The notes under the pieces were generated by a model. That model was not told the origin of the DNA, did not search any database, and worked only from the letters and a program-made list of their open reading frames with translations. Positions 7,488 to 62,855 of a stretch of DNA of 64,000 nucleotides are shown one piece after another (positions within the stretch are counted from its first letter, which is position 1; every line of letters starts with the position of its first letter). A program made the position numbers and the translations under genes. Location of the stretch: NCBI GenBank assembly GCA_964016885.1, contig OZ024741.1, positions 292,392,001 through 292,456,000 on the forward strand. Reading direction: 5' to 3'. This DNA comes from Eledone cirrhosa. Its lineage: Eukaryota.

Positions 7488-10400
7488 GGGCATCCAGCCC
7501 CATTTTAGAAATAATGGGGCTGGATGCCCGATCGCGCAGTTAAACCACTGGGAGTGAAGAACCCCTAGCCCTTTTCAGGGCATTTTTCTTCTAGAAGGCA
7601 TCTTAGGAAACTGGGTTAACTCCGACATAAAACCTGCAGCTCAGTAGTTACCGATGATGTTGATCTTTTCTTCTTTTCGGGTTATAGCTACTGTCGCTCA
7701 GAGAGTGGGATTGGCTCAGTGCACAGTTTTCCTCACTTTAAAAATATTCGTCACGCACAGGCATTGCACGATTGCATTAATTAATAATTATTAACAGTGT
7801 ATTATTATTATTATTATTCTTACTATTATTATTACATTTTTTTTCTTTTTTCCCAATTCAATGATGTTCCAGAAGAATATAAAAGAGATAATTGGCAATT
7901 TAGGTTCTGGAACAAAAAAGATAATTGGCAATAAGGGCAGGGGCACCAGGTTATCACAGCCTGGGCCCGCTCGTCATCGTGCCACTGTAATAGAGCCAAA
8001 CAAGGCATTTAGTCTTGGCTGCTGGAACGTACGGACGCTGCTTGACAGGGATTTCTTGGAGTGTCCTGAACGAAGGACCGCTCTTGTTGCAAAGGAGCTT
8101 CGACGTTACGATCTTCACATTGTGGCTTTATCTGAGACGAGGTTAGCTGGAGATGGTCATCTTACAGAATTGTGTGGAGAATATACATTCTTCTGGAAAG
8201 GAAGAGATGAAGGAACCAGAAGAGAAGCTGGGGTAGCATTTGCTGTTAAGACTGTTCTTGTGAATAAATTAGAAGAATTCCCAGTAGGGATTAGTGAGCG
8301 TCTTATGTCCATGAGAATTCCGCTGGACAAAGGAAGATATGCGACCCTGGTGAGTGTGTATGCTCCAACTATGAATTCTGTCGATGAAGAAAAGTGTCCT
8401 TTTACCATGCCTTGAAAGGTGTTTTAAGAAATATCCCTCAGGCAGACAAAGTCATCGTGCTTGGTGACTTTAATGCTAGCGTGGGTAGGGATTTTGACAC
8501 ATGGAATGTAATCGGAAGGCATGGGGTGGGAAAGTGTAACAACAATGGTATGCTCCTGCTGCAGATGTGTGAGGAGCTGGATCTGTGTGATACCAACACC
8601 ATGTTCCAACAAAAGAACAAATTCAAGACCACATGGATGCATCCTGCATCCATGGAATGACATCTTTTGGACTACGTCCTAGTCAGGATGCGAGACAGAC
8701 AGGATGTGCAGTGTGTTCGTGCTCTTCGTGGAGCTGAGTTCTGGACGGAACACCGCCTGGTACGCGCAAAAGTGAAACTCATCACTAAATGTAAAATTCA
8801 GGCTCCTGGTGTTGCCCTGCCCAAAAGATTGAATGCTGCTCGTCTTAAGGATAAAAATGTGAAGAGTACATTGGAAGAAGAGATGCAGGTTGCAGATCTT
8901 GGTGAGGATTGGCCAACCATTAAAAAGTCGGTTTATGATGTAGGCAGGCGTGTTCTTGGATTGGTGCAGAGAAAACATCAGGACTGGTTTAATGAGAATG
9001 ATGTACATATAGAAGACTTGTTGGCTGATAAGATGCGTGCTCTGTCACGCTACTTGACGGCAAAACCACTGGAGAGGAATACGTTGCATGAGGAACTCAA
9101 GGATGTAAAATCACGTGTTAGGCGGAGTCTTTCTCAGATGAAGGATCAGTGGTGGAGTGAGAAGGCTGGTGAGATACAAACTGCGTCAGATTCCAATAAC
9201 ACAAAGCTGTTGTACAGTCTCTTGCGTTAGGTTTATGAACCATCTTCTTCTCTAGTGACACAGCTTCGCAGCAAGGATGGCAAATAACTTCTTCGTGACT
9301 CACAAGGAATTCTACGAAGGTGGCGAGAGCACTTTGATGATCTTTTGAATCAGCCGTCTGTCGTCAATGAAGATTTCCTCAATCTCATTCCAGAAAGTCC
9401 TGTGAAAGTAGCTCTCGCAGAACCCCCGACGCTTGTGGAGGTTGCAGTGGCTATCTCGAAGCTGAACAGTGGAAGGTCTCCAGGTATGGATGGCATACAT
9501 GCTGAGCTCCTACAATAGGGTGGTGAGAGACTCCTGCAACATCTTCACTCTTTGTTTGGCAGGATATGGGCTAATGAATCAGTACCTGAGGACTGGAGAG
9601 ATGCAGTAATGGTGGTCTTGTACAAGGGAAAGGGTAACAGGAATGATTGTGGGAACTACAGAGGTATATCATTGCTTTCTGTCGTAGGGAAAGTTTTATG
9701 TAGGGTGCTTCTGGACCGTCTGCTGACACACATTGCAGATTGTGTTCTTCCTGAAAGTCAATCTGGTTTTCGTGCTGGACGCGGCACTACTGATATGATC
9801 TTCTCAGCTAGACAGCTCCAGCAGAAGTGCATGGAACAAGGCTTGGATCTGTATCAGGTTTTTGTCGATCTGACAAAAGCTTTCGATACTGTTAACAGAA
9901 ATGCATTATGGAAGGTTCTCCAGAAACTTGGTTGCCCTGATAAGTTCCTTGCTTTAGTTAGGTCTTTCCATGACGACATGAAGGCTTGGGTTAATGTCGG
10001 AGGTAACATGTCGGAGCCTATCTCAGTAAAAAATGGAGTGAAACAGGGGGATATTCCAGCACCAACCCTGTTTGCCATATACTTTGCAATGGTTTTCTGT
10101 ATTGCATTCAGGAATTGCGAGCATGGTGTTTACATCCGATATCGAACCTCAGGCAGCATATTTAACATCAGGCGCTTCGCTGCAAAGACAAAAGTATTTA
10201 CATCAATCATAAGAGACCTCTTGTATGCAGATGATTGCAATCTTGTAGCGCACACAGAGAGCGATATGCAGCACATTTTGAATGCATTTTCTGACGCTTG
10301 CACTGCCCTAGGATTGACTGTCAGTCTCAAGAAAACCGTCGCCATGTACCAACCTGCCCCTGGTAAGCAGTACAGTGAACCAAATATCTATGTGTATGGT

Positions 10401-11663
10401 AAACAACTTGGAGTGGTTGATCAGTTTGTCTACCTGGGAAGCACTGTCAATCGTTACAGCAACCTTGATAGTGAAATCTCACTTAGGATTAGGAAAGCAA
10501 GTGATGCTTTCGGAAAGCTAGAAAGGCGACTCTGGGGTCGGCGAGACATATGCAAGAAGACAAAGGTAAAGGTGTACAAGGCATGTGTGCTCTCTTGTCT
10601 TCTTTATGCCTGCGAGACCTGGGTCACATATCGACACCACCTTATGCAATTGGAGCGTTTCCATCAGATGTGTCTCAGACGGATCCATGGCGTTCACTGG
10701 AGGGACCACACCAGTGATGTCGAGATTTTGGAAAGCTCTATGTGTGACAGTATAGAAGCTTTTGTGACTAAGCAACGACTCCGTTGGAGTGGTCACCTTG
10801 CCAGGATGAAGGATTCTAGAATACCAAAACAACTCTTTTATGTAGAGTTGGTTAAAGGAAAACGACTGCCACATAAACCAAAAAAGAGGTATAAGGATTC
10901 CTTGAAAGCCTCTTTGAAAGACACTAACATCTCTGCTGATACATGGGAAAATATTGCTGCTGATCGTAATAAATGGAGAAAGACTGTATATGAGGGAAAA
11001 GTTGCCTTTGAGGCATCTTGAATCGCATACGAGAAAGTAAAGCGGGATGTGAGGAAGGGCATTGCTGTTGCACTTCCAGACGGCGAGGGTCCTCCTATGG
11101 TGCTGACATGCAGCGTCTGTGCGAGACTCTGCCTAAACTGGACTCGAAAGTCATCTTCCCAGTCATAAAGTAAGACCAGTGGTTGACTACCAGGCTGCTG
11201 TTGGAGATGCTACTCATCATGCTTGCCAAGCATGTGGTAGAGAATGTAAATCAGGAAGAGGGCTCAAGCGACATGCAAAAGTACACAAACTCCAACCACA
11301 GCCGGCTATTCGCAGTGAATGTTTTGGTTGCCGACTCTGTGCAAGACATTTTAGATCATTGGCTGGGCTAAAAAGCCACTTTCGATCGCAGCGTTGTTAG
11401 TTGCTATCGTGTGTGTGTGTGTGTATAGATATGTTTATGTGGGTGCGTGTGTGTGTGTATATATATATATATGTATATTATTATTGTTGTTGTTGTCGTT
11501 ATTATTATTGTTGTTATTATTATTATTATTGTTATTAATATATATGTATGTGTATGTATATGTGTGTGTATATGTATATATATATATGTATGTATATATG
11601 TGTATATATATATTTTTTTTTCTCGTGCAATGGCCGTACTCGATAACGAGGGGGCACCCATCA
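7488..11663 (+). mobile_element. Near-full-length RTE-clade LINE
   Basis: Non-repetitive 5' UTR-like segment from ~7490; APE + RT + zinc-finger coding region; RTE-like 3' tail gcaatggccgtactcgataacgagggggcacccatc at ~11627-11663. Confidence 0.85.
7861..11400 (+). pseudogene. RTE ORF: apurinic endonuclease, reverse transcriptase and C-terminal zinc fingers, disrupted
   Basis: APE motifs CWNVRTL, ALSETR, SVYAPT, LGDFNA, DYVLV. RT motifs NYRGISLLS, QSGFR, FVDLTKAFD, GVKQG, LLYADD, YLGS, LRWSGH. Frameshift near 8400; in-frame stops near 9230, 9285, 9516 and 11021; frameshift near 11135. Confidence 0.93.
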
Positions 11664-11978
11664 TATATATATATGTATATATTCATGTATATATATATAT
11701 GTATATATTCATGTATATATATATATATGTATATGTATATATTCATGTATATATATATATGTATATATTCATGTATATATATGTATATATTCATGTATAT
11801 GTATATATAGGAGGTGAGTTTTATTGTAGTACAATAAAGCAATGCAGATAAGCAATGCGGATAAGAAGCACTCTACAGTTTGTAGGACTGGAGTATACAT
11901 AATATATAAGAACAAAGATATGTTGATTTAAAACTGCACTATCCACAAGTGTTTTTTAACCTTCATATCATGTCTTCC

Positions 11979-12049
11979 TATTTTATCTGATGAAAACACA
12001 AATATTATTGCATGATGATATTTGTTTTTGAAATGCGCATAATAAAATA
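11979..12049 (+). ncRNA. Minimal type I hammerhead ribozyme in a short PLE-derived element (element ~11925-12085)
   Basis: Stem I tattttat (11979-86)/ataaaata (12042-49); core CTGATGA 11987-93; long stem II; GAAA 12030-33; palindromic stem III aTGCGCAt; predicted cleavage AUA^ after 12041. Confidence 0.8.
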
Positions 12050-12212
12050 CATGGAACTCTTTTAACCATCTTTTGTTCTTATATATTATATATATATATA
12101 TTCATGTATATATATATGTATGCATGTATTCATGTATATATATATATTTATGCATATGTGTATGTATGTATATATTCATGTATATATATATATATGTATG
12201 TATGCATACATG

Positions 12213-16167: not shown

Positions 16168-16321
16168 CCTCTTTACCTAAGATAAATATTTTCTTTCTTA
16201 CAAGAGAATCTTTTCACTGAAGTTTTAAGCTCCATTTTCTCAATGACAAGTAGAAAGATTATATATTTTTGTTCTTTTCACTTTTTAATTTTATAGATTT
16301 CTTTTTTCTTCTTAACCTCCA

Positions 16322-16437
16322 TATCTATCTACCTACATACTCACCTATCCACCCCACTATCTATTTACCTACATACTCACCTATCCACCCCACTATCTAT
16401 CTACCTACATACTCACCTATCCACCCCACTATCTATC
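16322..16437. repeat. 36-bp tandem repeat x3
   Basis: Unit tatctatctacctacatactcacctatccaccccac; the array resumes after the LINE at ~17375-17440. Confidence 0.9.
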
Positions 16438-17374
16438 ACCTCGAGTGCCTTCAGGTGCTCACAGCCCTCTACCAAGCAGAAACGGCAATCAGCCGAGACT
16501 CTACTTCGAGATTCTATAGGGGATTAGTGGAGGATAAGTGCAACGACGTTCTCGGGGAAACTCTAGACATTGAGGAGGATGAACTGACCAGTCTGTTCAG
16601 GAGGACTTTCCGTCCAGCGCCTATGGATAACTTCCAGAGGTCTCTGGCCTGGCAGTGCTACCGAAGAGCTCTACCAGTTCGAGACAAAATCTACAGGCAC
16701 GGACGCCCTGGCAGGGATCCTGCCAAAAGGACCCGTCCAAGATGCAAGCAGGTCATCGAAACCGTTCTGCACGCAATTGTTCAATGCCCAGGGGTGACCG
16801 ACCTGTGGAATTATGTTGAACAGCGACTGTCACGTGTGGGACACCTCCAGTTGTCAGTCGAGTCCATCGTGAGGATGACCCCGCTGCCTTCATTTAAGAA
16901 CGAAGGAGAGGCAGTTTTCCTCTGTCTGCTGGCTATGGTGAAAGAGGTAATATGGTGGACGAGGTTAAAAGGACTGAGGGCAAACACCTTTCTCTCCGGA
17001 CAACAACTTATCCCCTTCTTTAAGTATCACTTCAGAAAGAATGTGAGAGTGGAGAGAGAGGTGCTACACCCCAGGAAATTTGCTGAAAGGTGGGTGAATG
17101 TGGCGAAAATGGCCCGAAAATGGCCCTCTGTATATAAATAGAGGGAAGACAGGAACACCTACAAAACGTGTTCCTGATGTTGAGGGTTGTTCTATCCATG
17201 GGGTGTAAAACAACCCTGCAGTAACGCCCCTCCCCTATTGGTGATTTCAATTGTTATTTTATTATATATAGTTTATTGTTATTTATTAATGTTAAAGTTA
17301 TTTTTATGTAAAACCCCCGCCATCTCGTCTTGTAATGTCCCATTTTTTTACATCCCTGTGGCAAATAAAGAAAT
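16437..17374 (+). mobile_element. 5'-truncated L1/Tx1-like LINE (C-terminal zinc-knuckle region plus 3' UTR)
   Basis: ORF to 17141 with LAWQCYRRALPVRDK...PRC..ETVLHAIVQCP...LW (zf-RVT-like); ends aaataaagaaat. Confidence 0.75.
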
Positions 17375-24900: not shown

Positions 24901-24933
24901 ATATATATATATATATATATAAGGAGTACCATG

Positions 24934-25004
24934 TATTTTATTATGCGCATTTCAAAAACAAATATCATCATGCAATAATATTTGTGTTTTCATCAGATAA
25001 AACA
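24934..25004 (-). ncRNA. Minimal type I hammerhead ribozyme, copy 2 (element ~24922-25048)
   Basis: Reverse complement of 11979-12049; core, stem II and TGCGCA stem III unchanged; flanked by (TA)n. Confidence 0.8.
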
Positions 25005-25044
25005 GGAGGACATGATATGAAGGCTAAAAAACACTTGTGGATAG

Positions 25045-25084
<40 letters not shown>

Positions 25085-26504: not shown

Positions 26505-26568
26505 GCATACATATATCTGTGTGTATATATGTATATATATATATATATATATACACATTTGTGTGTCA

Positions 26569-27466
26569 TCATCATCATCATCATCAACGTTTAACGTCCG
26601 TGTTCCACGCTTGCATGGGTTTGGACGGGGGTTTTCCCACTTGAGGCAAGAGTGGTTGTCTTGCTCGCATAGGACTGTCTGGCAGGTTTTCTACAGCTGG
26701 ATGCCCTTCCTAACACCAACCACATTTACAGTGTGGGTCTGGGAGGTTTTTACCGTGTTGCCTACACGGCCACATTACAGCGTGTGCTGTGTGTTTTTTT
26801 GTCGTGACACCTACACGATCTCATTTGTTTCGGCCTGGATGGTGTGGCACCAACATAACTTTACATAGAAGGGGGCGGTGTGGATGGGGTGGGGGTGTAT
26901 TTTTTTAGAGATGCCTACTGACTGTAGTAGGTTTTACTATGTATTTAGGTAAGGCGGGTCTTCTCTATTACTGAGTACCGCCAAAGGTCTCGGTCCAGTG
27001 ACATTGTCTTGGAGAGGTGTAAGTGTGTGAGGTCGGAGTTTATCAGCTCGTCCCAGGTTTTTCTAGGTCTGCCTATTCCGTGGCTACCGTCTATCTTTAT
27101 TGCCCTGCACCTTGTTATACAGCTATCGTCTTTCATGCGCATCACGTGTCCATACCAACGTAGCCTTCTCTCGAGTAAACAACATCTGATCCCTCTTATT
27201 TCTAATTTTTTCCTTAGTTCGTTTATGCTTTGCCGTTCACGTATATTACTATTACACATCCAGCGGGGCATGCAACCTTCGTTCCTCTCTAGTCTGCATA
27301 TATCCTCTGCACACAATGCCCACGTCTCACTGCCATGCAACATTGTTGTGTGTGTATATGTATATATATATAAATATATACACACATTTGTTTGTGTGTA
27401 TATATATATATAAATATATACACACATTTATGTGTGTATATATATATATAAATATATACACACAGT

Positions 27467-27497
<31 letters not shown>

Positions 27498-28680
27498 GAA
27501 TATATACACACATTTATGTGTGTGTCATCATTTCATTTCATTTTATGTCCACTTTTTCCTTGCTTTTAAGGGTGGGACGGGAACTGATTCTGGCTTAATT
27601 TCTACAGCTGGATGCCCTTCCTAACACCAACCTCATTTACAGTGAGTGCTGGGTGCTTTTTCCGTGGCACCTGCACGACCACTTTGCAGTGGAATAATAG
27701 GGACCCTAGTCCTATTATCTCATTTCTACAGCTGAGTAAACTGGAGCAATGTGAAATAAAGTGTCTTGCTCAAGGAAACAACACATCACCTGGTCTGAGA
27801 ATTGAACTCACAACCTTTCGATTGCAAGGCCAATGCTCTAACCACTAAGCCATGTGCCCCCATAAATGTGTGTATATATATATATATATAAATACACATA
27901 TTTATGTGTATATATATATATATAAATATACCTGGGCATTGTGTGCAGAGGATATACGCAGACGAGAGAGGAACGAAGCTTGCATGCTCCGCTGGATGTG
28001 TAACAGTAATATACGTGAACGGCAAAGCATAAACGAACTAAGGAAAAAATTAGAGATAAGAGGGATCAGATGTTGTTTACTCGAGAGAAGGCTGCGTTGG
28101 TATGGACACGTGATGCGCATGAAAGTCGATAGCTGTATTACAAAGTGCAGGGCAATAAAGATAGACGGTAGCCACGGAATAGGCAGACCTAGAAAAACAT
28201 GGGATGAGCTGATAAACTCCGACCTCACACACTTACACCTCTCCAAGACAATGTCACTGGACCGTGACCTTTGGCGGTACTCAGTAACAGAGAAGACCCG
28301 CCTTGCCAGTAGGCATCTCTAACAAAATACACCCCGTCCCGCCACCACCCCCACCCCATCCACACCACCCCGTTCTATGTAAAGTTATGTTGGTGCCGCG
28401 CCATCCAGGCCGAAACAAATGAGATCGTATAGGTGTCACGACAAAAAAACACACAGTCCACGCTGTAATGTGGCCGTGAAGGCAACACGGTAAAAACCTC
28501 CCAGACCCACACTGTAAATGTGGTTGGTGTTAGGAAGGGCATCCAACTGTAGAAAACCTGCCAGACAGTCCTATGCGAGCAAGACAATCACTCTTGCCTC
28601 AAGTGGGACTACCCCCGTCCAAACCCATGCAAGCGTGGAACACGGACGTTAAACGTTGATGATGATGATGATGATGATGA
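26569..28680. repeat. Long inverted repeat (arms ~26569-27325 and ~27931-28680) of a SINE + RTE 3' fragment chimera
   Basis: Arms read as highly similar reverse complements; ORFs 26945-27427(-) and 27852-28322(+) encode nearly the same RTE C-terminal peptide. Confidence 0.9.
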
Positions 28681-29301: not shown

Positions 29302-30197
29302 CGAGGTGAGTCAGAAAAGTTCCAGGACTGAAGTCACAAAAGATTTATTTCAAACCCAAACTTCACACTAAGAGTTTTCTCCTTCAAAGTAATCCCCCTG
29401 GAGTCTAATGCAATTTTCCATCCTTTTCTGCCACACTTGCATGCACTCCTGGAAGGATTCTTCCAGAATCCTCCGCAGTTCCGTCGTCACGCAATTTTTG
29501 ATGTCGTCCATGTCTTCAAAACGGGTCCCCTCCGGGTCATACTCGAAGATCCATATCTCATCACCGGTGATGACTGTCCCTAGCAAGTATGGTTCGGTTT
29601 CAAGACGCTCAAGGACGTCCTGGCACACCTGCATGCGTCGACCCTTCTGGTCATCGTTCAGCAGTTTTGGCACCATCTTCGCGCTGACTTTCCGCATGTC
29701 CAAATCTTCAGTGAGAATCTTCCAGACGCTGTCCCGATTCATGCCCAGCTCATCTGCCATCAGTCGAACAGTCAGCCGACGATCGCTATGCACCATCTGC
29801 CTGACGCGCTCAACGTTGACCTCAGTCCTGGTTGTTGAGGGCCTTCCGCTCCTGGGGTCATCTTCCACGTATTCGCGTCGTTCTTTAAACATCTTGCACC
29901 ACTCAAAAACACGTGAGCGTGACATCGTCTCATCTCCATACACTTTCTGCAGCAATCCCAGTGCTTCCTACGGAGTTTTCAAGTTTGTTCGTTGCTCTGT
30001 GCTCATTGCTTGAGGACCTGAAACAGAGGACATGTATATCAAATTATGAAGAAAAAAGTTTGATCACTGCAGAGAGCTAAGGTTACAGTTACATACTCCA
30101 GGGGGATTACTTTGAAGGAGAAAACTCTTAGTGTGAAGTTTGGGTTTGAAATAAATCTTTTGTGGCATAAGTCCTGGAACTTTTATGACACACCTCG
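29302..30197 (-). mobile_element. Internally deleted mariner transposon with ~103-bp inverted termini
   Basis: TA TSDs at 29300-01 and 30198-99; TIRs cgaggtg.gtca.aaaagttccaggact. Transposase remnant has EDDPRSGRP, AKMVPKLL, ITGDEIW and a CI..QGDYFE end; the ATG at 30006 is followed by TAG at codon 13. Confidence 0.92.
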
Positions 30198-46092: not shown

Positions 46093-46133
<41 letters not shown>

Positions 46134-46267
46134 AAAGTTTTATTTAAGATTGTTGGGTTAAAACGAGTAAATATTTTATAACTGATATAAAAGCACTCAA
46201 CAGTTTCTGGAGTAGGTTTACGATATTAAACAAATGGAAACTATATTTATATTTATAAAACCATATT

Positions 46268-46333
46268 TATTTCGTTATATATATTTCTGGGATATCATAT
46301 TAAAAATATGTTATGCCTTCCTCAGACAAAATA
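46268..46333 (-). ncRNA. Minimal hammerhead ribozyme in the PLE 3' pLTR
   Basis: Reverse complement of 50092-50157. Confidence 0.7.
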
Positions 46334-47546
46334 CAATACATAAGCTGTTTTATAAATAATTAGTGACATACCTTGTGATAATGCAACTTCCTTTTAAAAA
46401 GTTGATTTGGTAGTGAAACTGTTATGATAGTTATATAGAAAGAAAACGAAGATGAGAAGAAGAAGATGAAGAGATGTATGCAAATAAAAAAAAGAAGATG
46501 AAGAGATGTATGCAAAGAAAAACAGCGGAGCGAGATAGAGAGACAAGGAGAGAGACATATCCATAATGTGTGAAGAAAAAAACATAGTAGGCTGCTTTTT
46601 GACAGATGATCATCGTATATGTGAAAAGTTAAGGGAAGGGATACAGTTAAATTAGTGTATAGGAGAAAAAGAAAGAGAGATGATATATTTAAAATATATT
46701 AAAAATATATTATGTCTCATCCATTTGAATTATCAATTTTTATGAATTAGGTATTATAATGTAAATATCAGTATTCATGAATGAGACACATATCCATAAT
46801 GTGTGAAAAAAATGACCACATGCTCAGTTAAAATTTCTTATGTCTATAAGCAAAATCTGAGATAAAACTTCAAACATAAGTATATATGCATTCTTGTGAA
46901 AAAAGAAAATAGAAGGTTATCTCAAATTCAAGTTGATAAATATAGACGCACATGTGAACCTACGTGATACGCTGCACTGATTCTTATACTTCATGAAAAA
47001 CTTCAATGCGTTAGAAAAAATTCCACCCTACATACATTTACATACATATATACATATATATATATAGACACAAAACATATAAGATATACATTAACATCTA
47101 AAATAACATTCTAGCCTCACTTGCATGATCATCGATCAAGCATAGAGTAGACAACAGATATCAATATTAAAATTCAAAACGCCAAGAATATCTTCATCAC
47201 TCTACAGAGTATCTAGGGACGCAAGAGAACATAGTATGCCACGCATATCGGTCATAGAATCAGAGTCAAAAGCAAACAAAACCAAAATTGCCTATCAATC
47301 CTTATTTAGCAGAAATCATTCAAAACTTATTCTACAAATGCTCTTATATTTATTATAGAAGTTTATCCAGCTTAAAAATGTATTCAAAAGATTGGGGACA
47401 ACGCCAATTATAGGGTAGTTTATTTAATCTCATTAATTATATATTCATGCGGAAAGGTTTTAAAAAAAAAATTGAAGGAATCGAAAGATTTATCGCCAAG
47501 TATCACAAATAGTCAAATACCTTAAGTAAATATACTACATTTTATA

Positions 47547-49184
47547 CTACATTTTAAATTTATATTTATATTTATATTTAAATGTTGAGTTCAATCTATG
47601 TCTGCAACAGCTGAATAAATTGGTTCGTAAATTAAGGGAATTTTTAGATTTTAATATAAAGAATATCTCCTCCGCGCAGAGGTCACAAGTCTCAGAAGAG
47701 GAATTAAAAGGAATCCCTTTTGAGACTATATTCCAAACCATCGAATATCCAACTTTATCATGCTTAAGTTGCCAGAGTAACCCTGACAGCGATGTTGATG
47801 ATTTTTTATTTGGATCCGTGAAAGAATTTTTGTGATTATTATAGCGAAGTTTAAATTCTGTCGAGGTGGAACCAACATAATTAAAAGAATTTAAATCAGT
47901 TCTAACATTACAGTTGTATATTATATTTTTAACTAAGCAATTGTTATTTAGCGGACATTTAGATCTATCTCTACAGTTACAGTTTTTTAGTTGAATATTG
48001 TTTAGGCTATTTTCGGTATTTTGGCTAGGTTTTAGATTCCTATTATTTATTCTATTAATATTTTGTGCTAAATTTTTGGTGGACGAGTACGTTAATTTTA
48101 TAGTATGTCTATTAAAAATTGAGTGATACTTATGTGTTCTAGGGAAGCGTTTGTCAAGAGCATTAAAAAATAGTTTAGCGATGTGGGTTTTAATGTTTAG
48201 TGAGAAAGGGGGGGCAAACCATATTATATTTCTAGTTCTATTTCTTTTCTGGTTTTTGAAATTATTGTAGTGCTTTCTATTATAGTTGTTAAAGTTGTTA
48301 CTGTAATTAAAATTGTTGTTATTTTGGTTAGTTTGTCTATTATCGATGTACATAATTTTATCACTATATCATGCTCTAGCTAAAGCTTCATTATAATACT
48401 GGGCTTTTTCGTCAAAAATATTTTTATTGGAAGAGATTCTAGAGATACGTTTTTGAACAGAGTTCACTATAGTATTGTTGACAGATCTGGGGTGATTGGA
48501 GCTAAAATTGACATAATTCAAGTTTTCATTTAACTTGTGAAATGGATAGTGAAGACATGTGTTGAGATTAAATGTTACGTCTAGGAAATTGACTATTCTA
48601 TGGTTATTCTCAATTTCTATTTTTAGATTAAGGTAATTAAAAAATTGTATAATTTGTTTTCTTTTCTTATTTAGTTCAGAGTTATTATTTTCAATAAGTA
48701 AAAGCATGTCATCTCTATATAAACCTCCGGTAACACCGGGTATTTTCCTATGCAGCGAATTAATTATAAATAGGCCCACAAGGTCCGTTACCTGAGCTGA
48801 GTCTGATGATCCCATAGTAATGTCAAAATTATTATCTCTATCTGCCCTAGTCCATAGTTGGTTATTAAATTCTATCAAAGTTTTCCTTGCCGATAATATA
48901 ATGTGCATTTCATTGCTAGTTAGGTCTGTATGCTTGAATGCGTAATTTAGTGTCTTATTAAGTAGATTAGGGGTAATGGATGAATAGTAGTTAGCAATAT
49001 CTAGTTGAATAAATTTATTATTATTGTTATATTTAATTTCATTAAACCACTCAATGACCTCCCCAGTTCCCTTCCACAAGGTCAAGCCAGGCAAACAATT
49101 CAAGTCCTTAATTTGCTGTATCACTCTGTCTAGAATGTTCTTGCTAAGTTTACCCAGGTCAGATTTTGATGGTGCAATCAACCT
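47547..49184 (-). pseudogene. PLE reverse transcriptase + GIY-YIG endonuclease, 5'-truncated, one in-frame TGA
   Basis: RT motifs QLDIANYYSSI, ITMGS, GLYRDD, VNFLDVTF, SNHP. Linker IIWFAPPFS, CNCRDRSKCPL. EN NIIY...YVGST..FKLRYNNH, CDLC..E, CRH. The two ORFs share one frame, separated by TGA at 48369-71. Confidence 0.92.
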
Positions 49185-50091
49185 GTGGCATACTATGTTC
49201 TCTTGCGTCCCTAGATACTCTGTAGAGTGATGAAGATATTCTTGGCGTTTTGAATTTTAATATTGATATCTGTTGTCTACTCTATGCTTGATCGATGATC
49301 ATGCAAGTGAGGCTAGAATGTTATTTTAGATGTTAATGTATATCTTATATGTTTTGTGTCTATATATATGTATATATGTATGTAAATGTATGTAGGGTGG
49401 AATTTTTTCTAACGCATTGAAGTTTTTCATGAAGTATAAGAATCAGTGCAGCGTATCACGTAGGTTCACATGTGCGTCTATATTTATCAACTTGAATTTG
49501 AGATAACCTTCTCTTTTCTTTTTTCACGAGAATGCATATATACTTATGTTTGAAGTTTTGTCTCAGATTTTGCTTATAGACCTAAGAATTTTTAACTGAG
49601 CATGTGGTCATTTTTTTCACACATTATGGATATGTGTCTCATTCATGAATACTGATATTTACATTATAATACCTAATTCATAAAAATTGATAATTCAAAT
49701 GGATGAGACATAATATATTTTTAATATATTTTAAATATATCATCTCTCTTTCTTTTTCTCCTATACACTAATTTAACTGTATCCCTTCCCTTAACCTCTC
49801 ACATATACGATGATCATCTGTCAAAAAGCAGCCTACTATGTTTTTTTCTTCACACATTATGGATATGTGTCTCTCTCCTTGTCTCTCTATCTCGCTCCGT
49901 TGTTTTTCTTTGCATACATCTCTTCATCTTCTTTTTTTTATTTGCATACATCTCTTCATCTTCTTCTTCTCATCTTCGTTTTCTTTCTATATAACTATCA
50001 TAACAGTTTCACTACCAAATCAACTTTTTAAAAGGAAGTTGCATTATCACAAGGTATGTCACTAATTATTTATAAAACAGCTTATGTATTG

Positions 50092-50157
50092 TATTTTGTC
50101 TGAGGAAGGCATAACATATTTTTAATATGATATCCCAGAAATATATATAACGAAATA
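50092..50157 (+). ncRNA. Minimal hammerhead ribozyme in the inverted pLTR
   Basis: Stem I tattttgt/acgaaata; core CTGAGGA 50100-06; stem II ggcataacatatt-ttt-aatatgatatccc; GAAA 50138-41; palindromic stem III atatatat; AUA^ after 50149. Confidence 0.7.
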
Positions 50158-50335
50158 AATATGGTTTTATAAATATAAATATAGTTTCCATTTGTTTAAT
50201 ATCGTATATATATATATATATATATATTAGGTGGGTCGCCAATATATATCAGTGGGGGGGGGGGGTAGCCACAATTACAAAAGGTACTCAATACATTAAT
50301 AGACTATAAGCATATTTTATTTCTATAAAAATGAC

Positions 50336-56745: not shown

Positions 56746-58827
56746 TACTATTACCACCAGCACCAACATAACCTCCATCAAGACCAGCATTAACATCACC
56801 TCCATCAATATGATATCCATTGCAACACTAATTCTATCATCATTACTGCCATCAACAACCTTAACATCAACACCAATGCTACGAATATGACTTCCAGTTC
56901 AGTACTAATATCAACAATAATATGAACACTACCAACACCATCAATATCCTTACCACTACCACTACAACAACAGCAACAACAAACTATACGACCACCAAAT
57001 GCTACTACAACAATTGAAACACTGCAATACACCACTATCAACAACAACTATAAAAACAATATGAATAAATAAATGAATATGCTAATACTGCAAATTTTCA
57101 CAACTGTCCTCTAGATACTATAAACACTTGAATTTACTATTCCATATTTATATATTTTTTGCTACATCATTAAGTTAAAGGTGTTAAGAGTGAAGCCATT
57201 TTGAGTGGTTCATTCACTTATCAAAGTGTTTCTCTTGTCTAGATATCCCTGGGTTAGAGAAAAGGTCAGTATTTCTGGGAGAGAGACAAGTAGTACAAGG
57301 AATTGCAAAGAACATCAGCAATGCTAGCTTCAAAAGACCCCCCAACCTCCACCTCACCCAGCTCCATTTGTAGGTTTGATGGATATTGACTCCTTCATCC
57401 ACACTTTTAGACAATATTGTTTTTGTCTTGTCAGGGTGTCTATCTACCCGGAGGTATAACTAGGGAAAATAGTACCCATGATAAGCAGCAAAATTGCACA
57501 CCTGCCCAAACATGATACTTATCCTTTAGATAACCATAAAATCAGCTTCAAAATACCAATTGTATTCGTTCATTTTTTAATTGGAAATAATACAGAAAAA
57601 TTAAACTGCATCTTCCTTGCTTTTACTTATGTTAACTTGTCTATAATTGGTAAAAGTGATTCCCCTCCCCTTCAAGTGCTGTCCATGGCACATGCCATGC
57701 TTGCCATACACTAGTTATGACTGTATATCTACTCTCCACACACACCAAGGTGAGACCCTAAAGTGGTTGACCATTTAGTCAATGATAGGTCAATTAAGCA
57801 TGTATGTACACAAACACATATATTTAGTAGTATCTAAGACTAGATTCCTTAATGTTCTGTTGGTTTCTATTTGAAGATGGGTTTGATTTGAGGGAGGTTT
57901 GGCTGCTCTTTTCAGTTGGTTGAGTGACCACATTAGCTCAGACAGTTGAGCCTCAGTTCAATTCTGATAGAGCTGACCTATGGTCACATGCATTCTCGTC
58001 AAATAATCGTGTTCTTGTTTTATATGTATATTTATGTACTGTATATACTTGAATATAAGCAAATCTGAATATGTCTGAGAAATAGGTGAAAATCTAGATG
58101 CCATTTATAAACTGAGGCAGCTAAGCAACACATTGTTTGATGGTGTATATAAGCCACCCTCCCATTTTACCATAGATTTTTGGGTCACCTATTCATAGGA
58201 TTATATTTGTGTAAATACAGTATATAGAATTAAATAATCTATTTTGTTCAACCTTTTAAAGACAACAGGGAGTCATTCAAGGCTGCTATTTCTAGCATGT
58301 TACATAACACAGAGGCTCCTTTGCTAAAGTTGTGACACTACCTGTTGTTGGTAGTGGTAGAGTTTTTTGAAGATGCTGATGATGACGATGGTGATTATGA
58401 TGAGGAGTTATATTAAATGTTTGATCATAATGATGTGAATAATGATTGTGATAGTGGTCTTGGTGAAAATGATGATGATAAAAATTATTGGGAATTTATG
58501 ATTAGAAGAGAATGATAATGATGATGGTGAGAGCAATGATGCCAAAAATGGTGTTGCTGCCGATGGTGATAATGAAGAATGCAAGAAAAAATATAATCAA
58601 AAGCAAGAATAAATATCACAATAAAATAACAACAAAAATCAATAGAAAATGAACAAAAAAGAAGAGCAAGAATAAGAGCTATATTATAATACCTGTAATT
58701 CTTTGGTTCGGTGTTAATATTTGGTGAGAATAATGATAATTAGTTTGCTGGAAGAATTGTAGCCAAGTGGTTTAGAATTGGATCTCAGACAAATGTAATT
58801 ATTGTTATTAATACAAATCTAGGGAAT

Positions 58828-60060
58828 GGTGGTGGTGGTGGTGGTGTGGTTGTGGTAGAGGTGGGTAATAGGATAATTGTGGTGGTGGTGATGTGGTTGT
58901 GGTAGAGGTGGGTAATAGGGTGAACTGATGGTTGGGGTGGTATTAGGGGTGATGGTGGTGGTGGTGATGTGGTTTTGGTAGAGGTGGGTAATAGGGTGAA
59001 CTGATGGTTGGGGTGGTATTAGGGGTGATGGTGGTGGTGGTGATGTGGTTGTGGTAGAGGTGGGTAATAGGGTGAACTGATGGTTGGGGTGGTATTAGGG
59101 GTGATGGTGGTGGTGGTGGTGATGTGGTTGTGGTAGAGGTGGGTAATAGGATAATTGTGGTGGTGGTGATGTGGTTGTGGTAGAGGTGGGTAATAGGATA
59201 ATTGTGGTGGTGGTGATGTGGTTGTGGTAGAGGTGGGTAATAGGGTGAACTGATGGTTGGGGTGGTATTAGGGGTGATGGTGGTGGTGGTGATGTGGTTT
59301 TGGTAGAGGTGGGTAATAGGGTGAACTGATGGTTGGGGTGATAATAGTGGTGGTGGTAGTAGGGTAATTATGGTAGAGGTAGTTAATAGGGTGAACTGAT
59401 GGTTGGGGTGGTATTAGTGGTGATGGTGGTGGTGGTGATGTGGTTGTGGTAGAGGTGGGTAATAGGGTGGACTGATGGTTGGGGTGGTATTAGTGGTGAT
59501 GGTGGTGGTGGTGGTGATGTGGTTGTGGTAGAGGTGGGTAATAGGGTGGACTGATGGTTGGGGTGGTATTAGTGGTGATGGTGGTGGTGGTGGTGATGTG
59601 GTTGTGGTAGAGGTGGGTAATAGGGTGGACTGATGGTTGGGGTGGTATCAGTGGTGATGGTGGTGGTGGTGGTGATGTGGTTGTGGTAGAGGTGAGTAAT
59701 AGGGTGGACTGATGGTTGGGGTGGTATTAAGGGTGATGGTGGTGGTGGTGATGTGGTTGTGGTAGAGGTGGGTAATAGGGTGGACTGATGGTTGGGGTGG
59801 TATCAGTGGTGATGGTGGTGGTGGTGGTGATGTGGTTGTGGTAGAGGTGAGTAATAGTGTGGACTGATGGTTGGGGTGGTATTAGGGGTGATGGTGGTGA
59901 TGGGGGTAGTTGTGGGGTAGTTGTCGTAGAGGTAGTTAATAGGGTGGGCTGATGGTTGGGGTAATAATAGTGGTGGTGGTAGTAGGGTAATTATGGTAGA
60001 GGTAGTTAATAGGTTGGACTGATGGTTGGAGTGGTATCAGTGGTGGCAGTAGTGGTGGGG
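58828..60060. repeat. G-rich minisatellite (~70-bp unit with ~40-bp variants)
   Basis: Unit ggtggtggtgatgtggttgtggtagaggtgggtaatagggtgaactgatggttggggtggtattaggggtgat. Confidence 0.9.
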
Positions 60061-60169
60061 TGTGCAGTTGTGGTAGAGGGCTAACAGGGGGGGGGGGTGA
60101 CGGGTGGAGTGATATAAATGGTGGTTTGGTGGTGGTGGGGTGGTTGGGGTGAAATTAGTGTTGGTGGTG

Positions 60170-60685
60170 GTGGAGCAGTTATGGTAGAGGCGGGTAGTTG
60201 GGTGGAGTCATGATGGTGGTGGTGGGGCAGTTGTGGTAGAAGAGGCTAGTTGGGTGGAGTCATGATGGGGCAGTTGTGGTAGAGGAGGGTAGTTGGGTGG
60301 AGTCATGATGGTGGTGGTGGGGAAGTTGTGGTAGAGTCGGGTAGTTGTGTGGAGTGGAGTGGTGGTGGTGGGGCAGTTGTGGTAGAGGAGGGTAGTTGGG
60401 TGGAGTCATGATGGTGGTGGTGGGGAAGTTGTGGTAGAGTCGGGTAGTTGTGTGGAGTGGAGTGGTGGTGGTGGGGCAGTTGTGGTAGAGGAGGGTAGTT
60501 GGGTGGAGTCATGATGGTGGTGGTGGAGCAGTTATGGTAGAGTCGGGTAGTTGTGTGGAGTGGAGTGGTGGTGGTGGGGCAGTTGTGGTAGAGGAGGGTA
60601 GTTGGGTGGAGTCATGATGGTGGTGGTGGGGCAGTTGTGGTAGAGGAGGGTAGTTGTGTGGAGTGGAGTGGTGGTGGTGGTGGTT
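60170..60685. repeat. G-rich minisatellite with a 103-bp dimeric higher-order unit
   Basis: The ggtagagtcggg variant recurs at ~60328, 60431 and 60534, alternating with a ggtagaggaggg variant. Confidence 0.85.
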
Positions 60686-61787
60686 TTCGAAATGTTGTGG
60701 TGGGTGGAAATGAGAGTGATGGTAGTGCCAATGGTGGTGCTGCTCATTGTTGGAGGAGGTGTGTGTGTATAAGGAGAGTGGTAGATGTGGTAGTGATTGG
60801 TGTGGGAAGAAATGTGAAAGAATGGTGGTAATGGTGGTGGGAGTCATTGCGGTGCTGGATCAGGTGAAACAGAAAAATAGGAAAGTTATCTTCATTGCAA
60901 TTACAGAAACACTTTGTGTGTGTGTGTGTTTCAGTGTTTAAAGGACAATGACCATTCTGCAATTTATATGTTAATGTGTGTATATATGTACACATACTTA
61001 AATATGAGAGTGTGTATAAATATGTGAGCACTTATATATATATATATATGCCTGTGAGTGTATTTACATGTATGTGTGTGTATGTATATAGGTGTGTGTG
61101 TATGATGTATGAATATAGCTCACACATATATCACATTTATTCCATTTTCTATCATCAGTATATCAATATATATTATTAATGAAGTCAAGAAAATGGTGTT
61201 ATGAAACATTTGTTAACAGAAAGTATATGCATGCCTGCATATATATATATATATATATATACACATACACATATAAACATACACACACATAAATATATAT
61301 ATATATATATATACACATACATATAAGTATATATATATATATGTACACCAACACATAATTATATATAGCAACTAGTATATCGGCTAACGTATATGAACAT
61401 AGCCTAATATACCTAATATAGATGGAGAGAAAAACAGCTACCAAGAAAAACTAAAATAAAAACGGCCTGTTGTATTTCATATTGGTGTGCATAAGTGCAT
61501 GTAGGTGTGTATTGAAATATGTGCTTTTTTGGTGTGAATGTATGTGTTACCTCAATGCCTATACTTCAATTAACACCCATGTAGACATTTTTTAATCAAT
61601 TGCTATCACAACTTTTAATTACCACAATAATAGAAAGATTAAATAAATATAGAAAAAATGAATGCCATTTATGTGTGTGAGTGTATGTATGAAAATGAAT
61701 ATATATAAATATATATATATAGTAATAATAAAGGCGAAGACTTATGGATACCTATTATCATCACCTAACATATATATATATATATAT

Positions 61788-62280
61788 GCAAAAGTTCTAT
61801 TTAAAATTGTTGGGATACAACAAGTAAATATTTTTATAACTGATATAAAGCACTCAACAAGTATTTGGAGTAGATATACGATATTAATAAATTGAAACTA
61901 TATTTATAAAATCATATTTATTTCATTATACATATTTCAGGGATACCAAATTAAATTATGGTATACCTTCATCAGACAAAATACAATATATAACAGTTTT
62001 ACAAATAAGCTTTGACGTACCCTTTTAAAATGCAACCATTATTTTTGGAAGCCATCCTTAACACTAAGACTTATTAAAATAATATAAACAATTCACTATC
62101 CAGATGGCTTCCAAAAATAATGGTTGCATTTTAAAAGGGAACGTCAAAGCTTATTTGTAAAACTGTTATATATTGTATTTTGTCTGATGAAGGCATACCA
62201 TAATTTAATTTGGTATCCCTGAAATATGTATAATGAAATAAATATGGTTTTATAAATATAGTTTCAATTTATTAATATCG
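61788..62280 (-). mobile_element. Non-coding fold-back PLE related to the 46-50 kb element
   Basis: 178-bp arms 61879-62056 and 62103-62280; 46-nt spacer; 91-nt extension starting gcaaaagtt; (TA)n flanks; alignable to 46131-46400. Confidence 0.85.
62176..62240 (+). ncRNA. Minimal hammerhead ribozyme (mirror copy 61919-61983 on minus strand)
   Basis: Stem I tattttgt/atgaaata; CTGATGA 62184-90; stem II aggcatacca/tggtatccct; GAAA 62221-24; AUA^ after 62232. Confidence 0.75.
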
Positions 62281-62734
62281 TATATATATATATATGTATA
62301 TATATATATGTCCCACCCTTGCAAGCAGGGAGAAGCGGACGTAAAATGATGATGATGATGATGATATATATATATATTAATATTTCACCATCATTGTTTA
62401 ACGTCCATTTTCCACGTGTCTGTGTATATATATATATGTGCGGCAACACTCATCTTTTTCCATTTCTCCGAGGGTTATAAACCCCACTATCAGGCTAGAA
62501 ATTTCTTTAGTCTAAAATACGGTGAAAGCTTATAATTTCTAATTTCTAATATATATATATATATATTTGTGTGTTTATATATATATGTATGTATATAGTT
62601 AGATGTATGTATATTTATATATATATACATAGATGTATGTATATTTATATCTATCTATCTATCTATATATATATATATGTAGATTTAAAACTGCACTATC
62701 CACAAGTGTTTTTAACCTTCATATCATGTCCTCC

Positions 62735-62805
62735 TATTTTATCTGATGAAAACACAAATGTTATTGCATGATGATATTTGTTTTTGAAATGCGCATAATA
62801 AAATA
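62735..62805 (+). ncRNA. Minimal type I hammerhead ribozyme, copy 3 (element ~62682-62845)
   Basis: Same as 11979-12049 except one A>G change in stem II, which leaves a G.U pair. Confidence 0.8.
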
Positions 62806-62855
62806 CATGGAACTCATTTAACCATCTTTTGATCTTATATATTATATATATATAT

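What the first reader, a model, noticed from the sequence alone, without database searches (positions are those of the whole stretch)
11925..12085. Short mobile family that is little more than an intact hammerhead ribozyme (three copies in 64 kb)
Seen: near-identical 125-160 bp units at ~11925(+), ~24922(-) and ~62682(+), each in or next to TA-rich tracts. Each has a complete CUGAUGA/GAAA core, a 6-8 bp stem I, a long stem II and a palindromic AUGCGCAU stem III. Copies 1 and 3 share both ends (gatttaaaactgc...cttatatatt). Known: PLE and retrozyme minimal hammerheads have palindromic stem III and act as dimers. Inference: a high-copy non-autonomous PLE-derived or retrozyme-like family that could place self-cleavage sites in host pre-mRNA.
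Basis: partly seen in the sequence, partly recalled or inferred. Interest (0 to 1): 0.72.

Follow-up and report, generated by a model that had tools for sequence, protein, structure and literature searches.

The report
Capped stubs of a Penelope retrotransposon
These three hammerhead-ribozyme units are the short ends of an ordinary protein-coding jumping gene with over 15,000 copies in this animal genome, not a separate mini-element; about a third of the copies begin at one fixed base with an extra G, likely because the copying enzyme ran to the capped start of an RNA that the ribozyme had not cut.

Summary
The three copies and the type I hammerhead are real. They are not a non-autonomous family or retrozyme. 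They are end pieces of a young, autonomous 3.9-kb Hydra-clade Penelope-like element: 800-aa RT/GIY-YIG ORF, (TA)n targeting, at least 15,017 copies, partial tandems and inverted arms. Short and long copies share haplotypes; no short tandem arrays were seen. Dispersed truncated PLE hammerheads are published (PMC4209133, PMC8557442). The added observation: 30 of 101 copies sampled without regard to their 5' end start about 124 nt upstream of the cut. A non-native G precedes that site in 2,198 copies against 2,266 A/T, about three times expectation. A sister family shows the same, more weakly. The cut site shows no comparable pile-up. Likely reading: reverse transcription starts internally and runs across the uncut ribozyme to the RNA cap. 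No RNA data; cleavage untested.

The parts
11808..11916 (-). Inverted arm of insertion 1: element positions about +135 to +31 relative to the cut (the PLE 'tail'), beginning in (TA)n
11868..11894 (-). Bulged tail hairpin (RCTCC..G.NN.GAGYGC), about 7 nt past the first 3' end site; predicted RT start signal
   Evidence: role inferred
11917..11917 (+). G in place of the native C just before the fixed 5' start; here it also fits the inverted arm by microhomology; likely cap-derived
11918..12084 (+). Copy 1, direct arm: element positions -124 to about +43, ending in (TA)n
11979..12049 (+). Type I hammerhead: stem I 11979-11986/12042-12049, CUGAUGA 11987-11993, stem II 11994-12029, GAAA 12030-12033, palindrome 12033-12040, predicted cut after 12041
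24921..25048 (-). Copy 2: positions -108 to +21, between (TA)n tracts; predicted cut after 24942
62675..62840 (+). Copy 3: positions about -124 to +43, between (TA)n tracts; predicted cut after 62797
61770..62056 (-). Sister Hydra family, inverted arm with tail and hammerhead (core at 61975)
62055..62288 (+). Sister Hydra family, direct arm with hammerhead (core at 62184, predicted cut after 62232)
46098..50212 (.). Sister Hydra family, long fold-back insertion: hammerheads at 46325(-) and 50100(+), 5'-truncated RT-endonuclease ORF at 49256-47547(-) with one in-frame stop

Best explanation
The units are end pieces of an autonomous, (TA)n-targeting Hydra-clade Penelope-like retrotransposon, and the short form seen in copies 1 and 3 is likely made when its reverse transcriptase starts inside the first repeat of the element's capped RNA and copies across the uncut hammerhead to the cap. 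Shown: a 3.9-kb unit with an intact 800-aa ORF 213 nt after the hammerhead cut; two fixed 3' ends (about +43/46 and +135); inverted two-arm insertions; a sharp 5' start at -124 with excess non-native G; no comparable start at the cut site. Inferred: -124 is the transcription start; the endonuclease nicks both strands in (TA)n; each nick primes at one of the two internal sites, each marked by a bulged hairpin 7 nt downstream; the two cDNAs are joined head to head by microhomology. Priming in the downstream repeat gives long, randomly truncated arms; priming in the first repeat gives 167- or 260-nt stubs. The hammerhead is under selection in the active lineages and would cut mainly as a dimer or with protein help; scattered single copies are likely dead on arrival.
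For: Parent element: about 60 of the 150 best-scoring ORF matches (11,995 candidates) have an 821-codon open frame (hand count); 23 intact 800-aa ORFs in 20 loci chosen for that, 96.8-100% identical; tandem period 3,896-3,936 nt; predicted fold pLDDT 78, four best PDB matches are telomerase RTs; RLRW, DKT, YRDD, CxCx5C, LIY..YFG, CxxC and CxH present, CCHH absent, as defined for Hydra (PMC8557442 section 11). 94 of 98 3' ends run into (TA)3+. 3' ends: 55 short, 43 tailed, 3 continuing, of 101. 5' ends: 30 of 101 at -117..-128, expected 1.9. G before -124: 2,198 vs 2,266 A/T genome-wide; G/(A+T) expected about 0.25-0.33; in 13 of 30 G loci the G is not part of the partner arm. Sister family: 256 G vs 417 A/T at a start 137 nt before its cut; both starts are the A of a CA dinucleotide. 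An extra G marks cap copying in L1 (PMC11702581, passage). Arms agree: of 31 cap-class arms 17 have a cap-class partner; of 45 long arms none does (both arms of one insertion are counted). Cut-site segment 125 junction matches vs controls 147 and 131. Internal initiation at two sites and use of unprocessed RNA were shown in vitro for an anole PLE (PMC11167929).
Against: Copies that reach the ORF start rarely end at -124: 1 of 16 passing -116, against 31 of 76 in the general sample (p=0.008); 23 of 45 end between +38 and +186 and 15 run further upstream. This is unexplained and means full-length copies come mostly from read-through (or circular) RNA, or the -124 RNA is not the ORF mRNA. In 11 of 30 G loci the G can be read from the partner arm, and 6 were unresolved. 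A small excess of starts at the cut is possible: 16 of 30 loci at -3..+1, p=0.03, confounded by ATA microhomology. Denominators of the three junction patterns were not measured separately. Core versus flank conservation is only suggestive (0 of 17 vs 11 of 57 sites with shared variants, p=0.06). Stem II starts with three A-U pairs and a C-U mismatch, not the usual G10.1-C11.1 pair, so activity may be weak. No RNA evidence. Clade rests on motifs and by-eye comparison, not a tree.
Confidence: 0.68

Rival explanations
1. Same parent element, but -124 is not a cap site: it is a strong reverse-transcriptase stop or microhomology hot spot (palindromic CATATG/ATAT), and the G comes from terminal transferase activity or the partner arm.
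For: The site is a short palindrome that favours symmetric joins (many CAAC-ATAT-GTTG junctions); 11 of 30 G's fit the partner arm; ORF-linked copies do not stop there.
Against: A sequence-encoded stop should also act on ORF-linked copies, yet 15 of 16 pass it; the sister family has a G excess at a non-palindromic CA site, including G directly after pure (TA)n.
Confidence: 0.14
2. The stubs come from short capped RNAs transcribed from existing solo ends (an internal promoter in the repeat), so they partly re-amplify themselves as an incipient non-autonomous family.
For: Explains why ORF-linked copies lack the -124 end; Drosophila Penelope has an internal promoter (PMC2377424, passages); tailed stubs keep hairpin 1.
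Against: No frequent haplotype private to short copies among 13 variable sites; stubs end before hairpin 2, yet many new arms end at the +135 site that precedes it; no co-mobilised flanking DNA was noticed, though not searched for systematically.
Confidence: 0.13
3. Retrozyme: hammerhead-to-hammerhead monomers are cut, circularised and reinserted as short tandem repeats.
For: Type I hammerhead with palindromic stem III; retrozymes are proposed PLE derivatives (bioRxiv 10.64898/2026.07.22.740005, part 1).
Against: No short tandem arrays; unit ends do not lie at the cut; the only repeating unit is 3.9 kb and codes for protein. A 3.9-kb circle as template for tandem copies is not excluded.
Confidence: 0.03

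Closest known systems
Hydra clade of C-terminal-endonuclease Penelope-like elements, incl. Hydra-1_Obim of Octopus bimaculoides (Craig et al. 2021, PMC8557442; section 11, passages, supplement part 2 and search hits)
   Same: RW and DKT motifs, CxCx5C linker, CxxC/CxH, no CCHH, (TA)n insertion, canonical hammerhead with short palindromic stem III, inverted truncated arm with one-sided tail.
   Different: Unit is 3.9 kb (listed Hydra families are mostly under 3 kb) with an 800-aa ORF holding a low-complexity insert; hammerhead sequence differs from every Hydra motif in the part of File S2 read; four short motif searches of the supplement found nothing; tail is about 90 nt rather than 30-40; at least 15,000 copies with many intact ORFs.
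Poseidon PLE of Anolis carolinensis (Frangieh et al. 2024, PMC11167929; parts 1-2 of 4 read)
   Same: Two internal RT start sites giving the tail, AT-rich targets, both strands primed, unprocessed RNA as main template.
   Different: There the ORF starts inside the hammerhead and RT starts inside the ORF; here both starts lie in the 5' UTR. The parts read do not describe a fixed capped 5' end of short copies.
Minimal PLE hammerheads (Cervera and de la Pena 2014, PMC4209133; parts 1-2 of 4 read)
   Same: Thousands of dispersed single motifs ascribed to truncated PLEs, opposite-strand pairs 100-700 bp apart, palindromic helix III, predicted dimer use.
   Different: This motif has longer stems I and II and A-U instead of G-C at the base of stem II.
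Metazoan non-LTR retrozymes (Cervera and de la Pena 2020, PMC7229834; passages)
   Same: Type I hammerhead, AT-rich, link to PLEs.
   Different: Retrozymes are non-coding 150-450-bp tandem repeats expressed as circles; none of that is seen here.

Membership tests
Type I hammerhead ribozyme | CUGANGA, GAAA, UH core with three stems | tested here: met
   core intact in 79 of 87 copies spanning it, only N7 has a shared variant
Type I hammerhead ribozyme | Covariation in stems | tested here: met
   99% of cells paired, 4 of 14 pairs change on both sides across 15 distinct rows of two families; related sequences inflate this, inner stem II not counted
Type I hammerhead ribozyme | Self-cleavage | not testable with these tools
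   no assay, no RNA reads
Endonuclease-positive PLE | Single ORF, telomerase-like RT | tested here: met
   800-aa ORF; YRDD; top four fold matches are TERTs; Pfam gave no hit for this protein
Endonuclease-positive PLE | C-terminal GIY-YIG endonuclease | tested here: met
   LIY..YFG, conserved R, E, N in alignment; Pfam GIY-YIG only in 1 of 16 homologues at E=0.0012; not separately fold-searched
Endonuclease-positive PLE | Partial tandems forming pLTRs, inverted 5'-truncated arm, one-sided tail | tested here: met
Hydra clade | RWK-like and DKT motifs | tested here: met
   RLRW(T/I) at 35, DKT at 123; homologues have RWK
Hydra clade | CxCx5C linker, CxxC and CxH, no CCHH | tested here: met
   positions 659, 759, 787; no CCHH pattern
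Hydra clade | (TA)n insertion and canonical hammerhead | tested here: met
   94 of 98
Hydra clade | Placement in an RT tree with reference PLEs | not tested
   reference sequences were visible only in the paper's supplement; compared by eye
Non-LTR retrozyme | Tandem 150-450-bp units each with a hammerhead | tested here: not met
   spacing never under 700 nt in fetched loci
Non-LTR retrozyme | No coding capacity in the family | tested here: not met
Non-LTR retrozyme | Circular RNA | not testable with these tools
   no RNA run available

The most novel reading that the evidence does not exclude
Thousands of genomic stubs record the PLE reaction step by step: both nicked strands prime on the same RNA repeat at two hairpin-marked internal sites, both cDNAs cross an uncut hammerhead and copy the 7-methyl-G cap, and the transcription start of an active PLE can be read to the base from DNA alone. 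The hammerhead would then serve translation or silencing control, or processing of read-through multimers, rather than define the template's 5' end as the R2 ribozyme does.
Probability: 0.55. Interest if true: 0.62.

Novelty: new member of a known kind. Interest (0 to 1): 0.4.

Why it matters
The feature itself is a known kind of debris. Its value is as a test system: a young family with dozens of intact ORFs and over 15,000 insertions gives base-level predictions for transcription start, RT start sites and the role of the hammerhead, which Craig et al. 2021 call unclear. With the core intact in 79 of 87 sampled copies and a sister family of similar size (15,421 exact matches), the genome also carries tens of thousands of potential self-cleavage motifs whose effect on host transcripts is untested.

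Tried and rejected
Rfam: only microsatellite-driven miRNA hits among the 150 rows shown for the window and no hammerhead at E<=10 for the unit. MFE folding does not recover the hammerhead, z -0.3 to -1.4. Pfam and PDB sequence searches did not identify the ORF. Hypothesis that the ribozyme cut defines the 5' end of copies: rejected as a major route (3 of 101; 125 vs 147 and 131). No RNA holder listed; contigs of three runs of unknown kind were laid: they show the same variants and many joints at 11917-11920, but may be the same sample and are not counted as support. All-versus-all extension for the sister family was confounded by inverted arms and (TA)n, so its 5' profile was judged only. Partner calls at -989/-991 (4 cap-class, 3 long, all next to TA tracts) are taken as false matches to an internal (TA)n. 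The copy 2 energy line was out of register and is not used. No host exon was recognised in the window's long ORFs, which are repeats and other transposons. Literature searches found no paper on a cap-G signature in PLE copies or on this family; subscription papers, Repbase and most of the Craig supplement (parts other than part 2 and search hits) were not seen.

Full report
Observation. The three copies are present and 95-97% identical, each with a complete type I hammerhead and predicted cuts after 12041, 24942(-) and 62797; a generic motif scan finds 5 hammerheads in the window against 0.02 in shuffles. Rfam has no matching hammerhead model and MFE folding does not recover the fold, so the call rests on the motif, on conservation and on covariation. 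Positions below are relative to the cut (+1 is the first base after it).

Copy number and parent. A 38-mer over the core's 3' half has 8,184 exact matches in the 3.0-Gb genome and a downstream anchor 15,017, with none in reversed controls. Many matches come as minus-then-plus pairs. Followed upstream, copies extend by variable lengths into a 1-kb untranslated region and then an ORF. A protein search gave 11,995 candidates; about 60 of the 150 scored have an 821-codon open frame (hand count). Tandem loci have a period of 3,896-3,936 nt with the ATG 213 nt after the cut. Twenty loci picked for open frames hold 23 intact 800-aa ORFs, 96.8-100% identical, so the family is young. Pfam and PDB sequence searches miss the protein, but the predicted fold matches telomerase RTs best, and 21 unnamed homologues share its motifs. 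It has RLRW, DKT, YRDD, CxCx5C, LIY..YFG, CxxC and CxH and lacks CCHH, the features that define the Hydra clade (PMC8557442, section 11). That paper lists an octopus family, Hydra-1_Obim, whose protein resembles this one by eye but whose hammerhead differs. No tree was built. That the host is an octopus-type animal is taken from recall and from earlier scan notes, not tested.

Unbiased sample. I took all copies matching the downstream anchor in the first 45 Mb of contig C1 (101 after removing duplicates). 3' ends: 55 short (about +43/46), 43 tailed (about +135), 3 continuing into the ORF; 94 of 98 run into (TA)n. This is the two-site tail signature explained by internal RT initiation in an anole PLE (PMC11167929). 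Following a lead from earlier scan notes, I found a bulged hairpin RCTCC..G.NN.GAGYGC about 7 nt beyond each end site, in both this family and its sister, with an A-U to G-C change in the outer pair; the motif occurs in the window only in three element tails. Its role is inferred.

5' ends. Extents were: 3 at or after the cut, 11 at -1..-62, 11 at -63..-116, 30 at -117..-128, 12 at -129..-500, 11 at -501..-1000 and 23 beyond, 7 of them cut by the locus edge. The peak is about 15 times background. The native base before -124 is C; genome-wide 2,198 copies have G and 2,266 have A or T, whereas partner-arm composition predicts a G/(A+T) ratio near 0.25-0.33. In 30 G loci, 13 G's are outside the partner arm, 11 could come from it, 6 were unresolved. 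A subfamily of the sister family shows 256 G against 417 A/T at a CA site 137 nt before its cut. An extra G is read as cap copying in L1 insertions (PMC11702581, passage). Arms pair like with like: 17 of 31 cap-class arms have a cap-class partner and none of 45 long arms does (not independent, as both arms of an insertion are counted), as expected if both cDNAs are primed on the same repeat.

The cut site. Matched patterns for junctions in 11-nt segments gave 125 at the cut, 147 just downstream and 131 upstream; denominators were not measured one by one. Within the cut segment 16 of 30 loci start at -3..+1 (p=0.03), so a few percent of copies may come from cleaved RNA, but 98 of 101 sampled cDNAs cross the site. 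This agrees with the in vitro finding that unprocessed RNA is the main PLE template (PMC11167929); a religated circle would look the same.

Is the ribozyme maintained? The core is intact in 79 of 87 spanning copies and the palindrome in 75; shared variants hit 0 of 17 core and stem III sites, 11 of 57 flank sites and 7 of 36 stem II sites (p=0.06), and the only shared change in CUGANGA is at the free position. Across the two families 99% of cells pair and 4 of 14 pairs change on both sides. Stem III is unfavourable as a hairpin but stable as a self-duplex, consistent with the dimer model and low activity reported for such motifs (PMC4209133). The weak A-U base of stem II argues for low activity too.

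Against a separate family. Short and long copies share haplotypes (10 short and 13 long in the commonest) and no short tandem arrays occur, so the retrozyme definition (PMC7229834) fails on two tested features. Cervera and de la Pena already ascribed dispersed and opposite-strand hammerhead pairs to truncated PLEs.

What does not fit. Of 45 ORF-linked copies, 23 start at +38..+186, 6 at -1..-108, 1 at -127 and 15 further upstream. If the capped RNA were the usual template for full-length copies, more should end at -124 (p=0.008). Either full-length copies come mostly from read-through or circular RNA, or the capped RNA is often short (rival 2). These loci were selected by similarity to one ORF, which may bias them.

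Verdict. A real hammerhead in the ends of a new, active Hydra-clade PLE family: confidence about 0.95 for the identity, about 0.68 for the whole mechanism including the cap. Nine literature searches found no report of the cap signature in PLEs, within the library's limits. I noted the cap idea before seeing that the scan had reached it on other DNA of this genome; those notes are not independent evidence.

Noticed in passing
window 61770-62288 and 46098-50212: Sister Hydra family with its own hammerhead (stem III AUAUGUAU or AUAUAUAU), 15,421 exact matches of a 37-mer genome-wide; ORF about 45-55% identical to the first family; covarying stem II.
   Followed up: partly
L245, L249, L250, L265 (junction just 5' of the fixed start): Short direct repeats of the first 8-12 element bases stacked at the 5' junction, as if the RT re-primed on the template end, reminiscent of telomerase-like repeat addition.
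   Followed up: no
L045-L094, +38 to +186 relative to the cut: 23 of 45 ORF-linked copies stop within the 5' UTR, around the two RT start sites, a much higher rate than along the ORF; may reflect collision with a second complex.
   Followed up: partly
ORF residues about 580-657 (L075): Low-complexity N/S/T/P-rich insert between thumb and linker, absent from all 15 aligned homologues and disordered in the model.
   Followed up: no
window 7795-11021 (+): Fragmented endonuclease-RT ORFs of a LINE-type element (family label RTE recalled, not tested).
   Followed up: no
window 26566-28677: Nested inverted repeats (378 and 332 nt, 96%) containing a LINE RT C-terminal fragment on both arms.
   Followed up: no
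window 29368-29967 (-): Mariner-like transposase fragment (label recalled from the translation).
   Followed up: no
window 16254-17141 (+): ORF fragment resembling the zinc-finger end of an L1/Tx1-type RT (recalled).
   Followed up: no
window 58788-60777: Two G-rich minisatellites with periods of about 79 and 103 nt.
   Followed up: no
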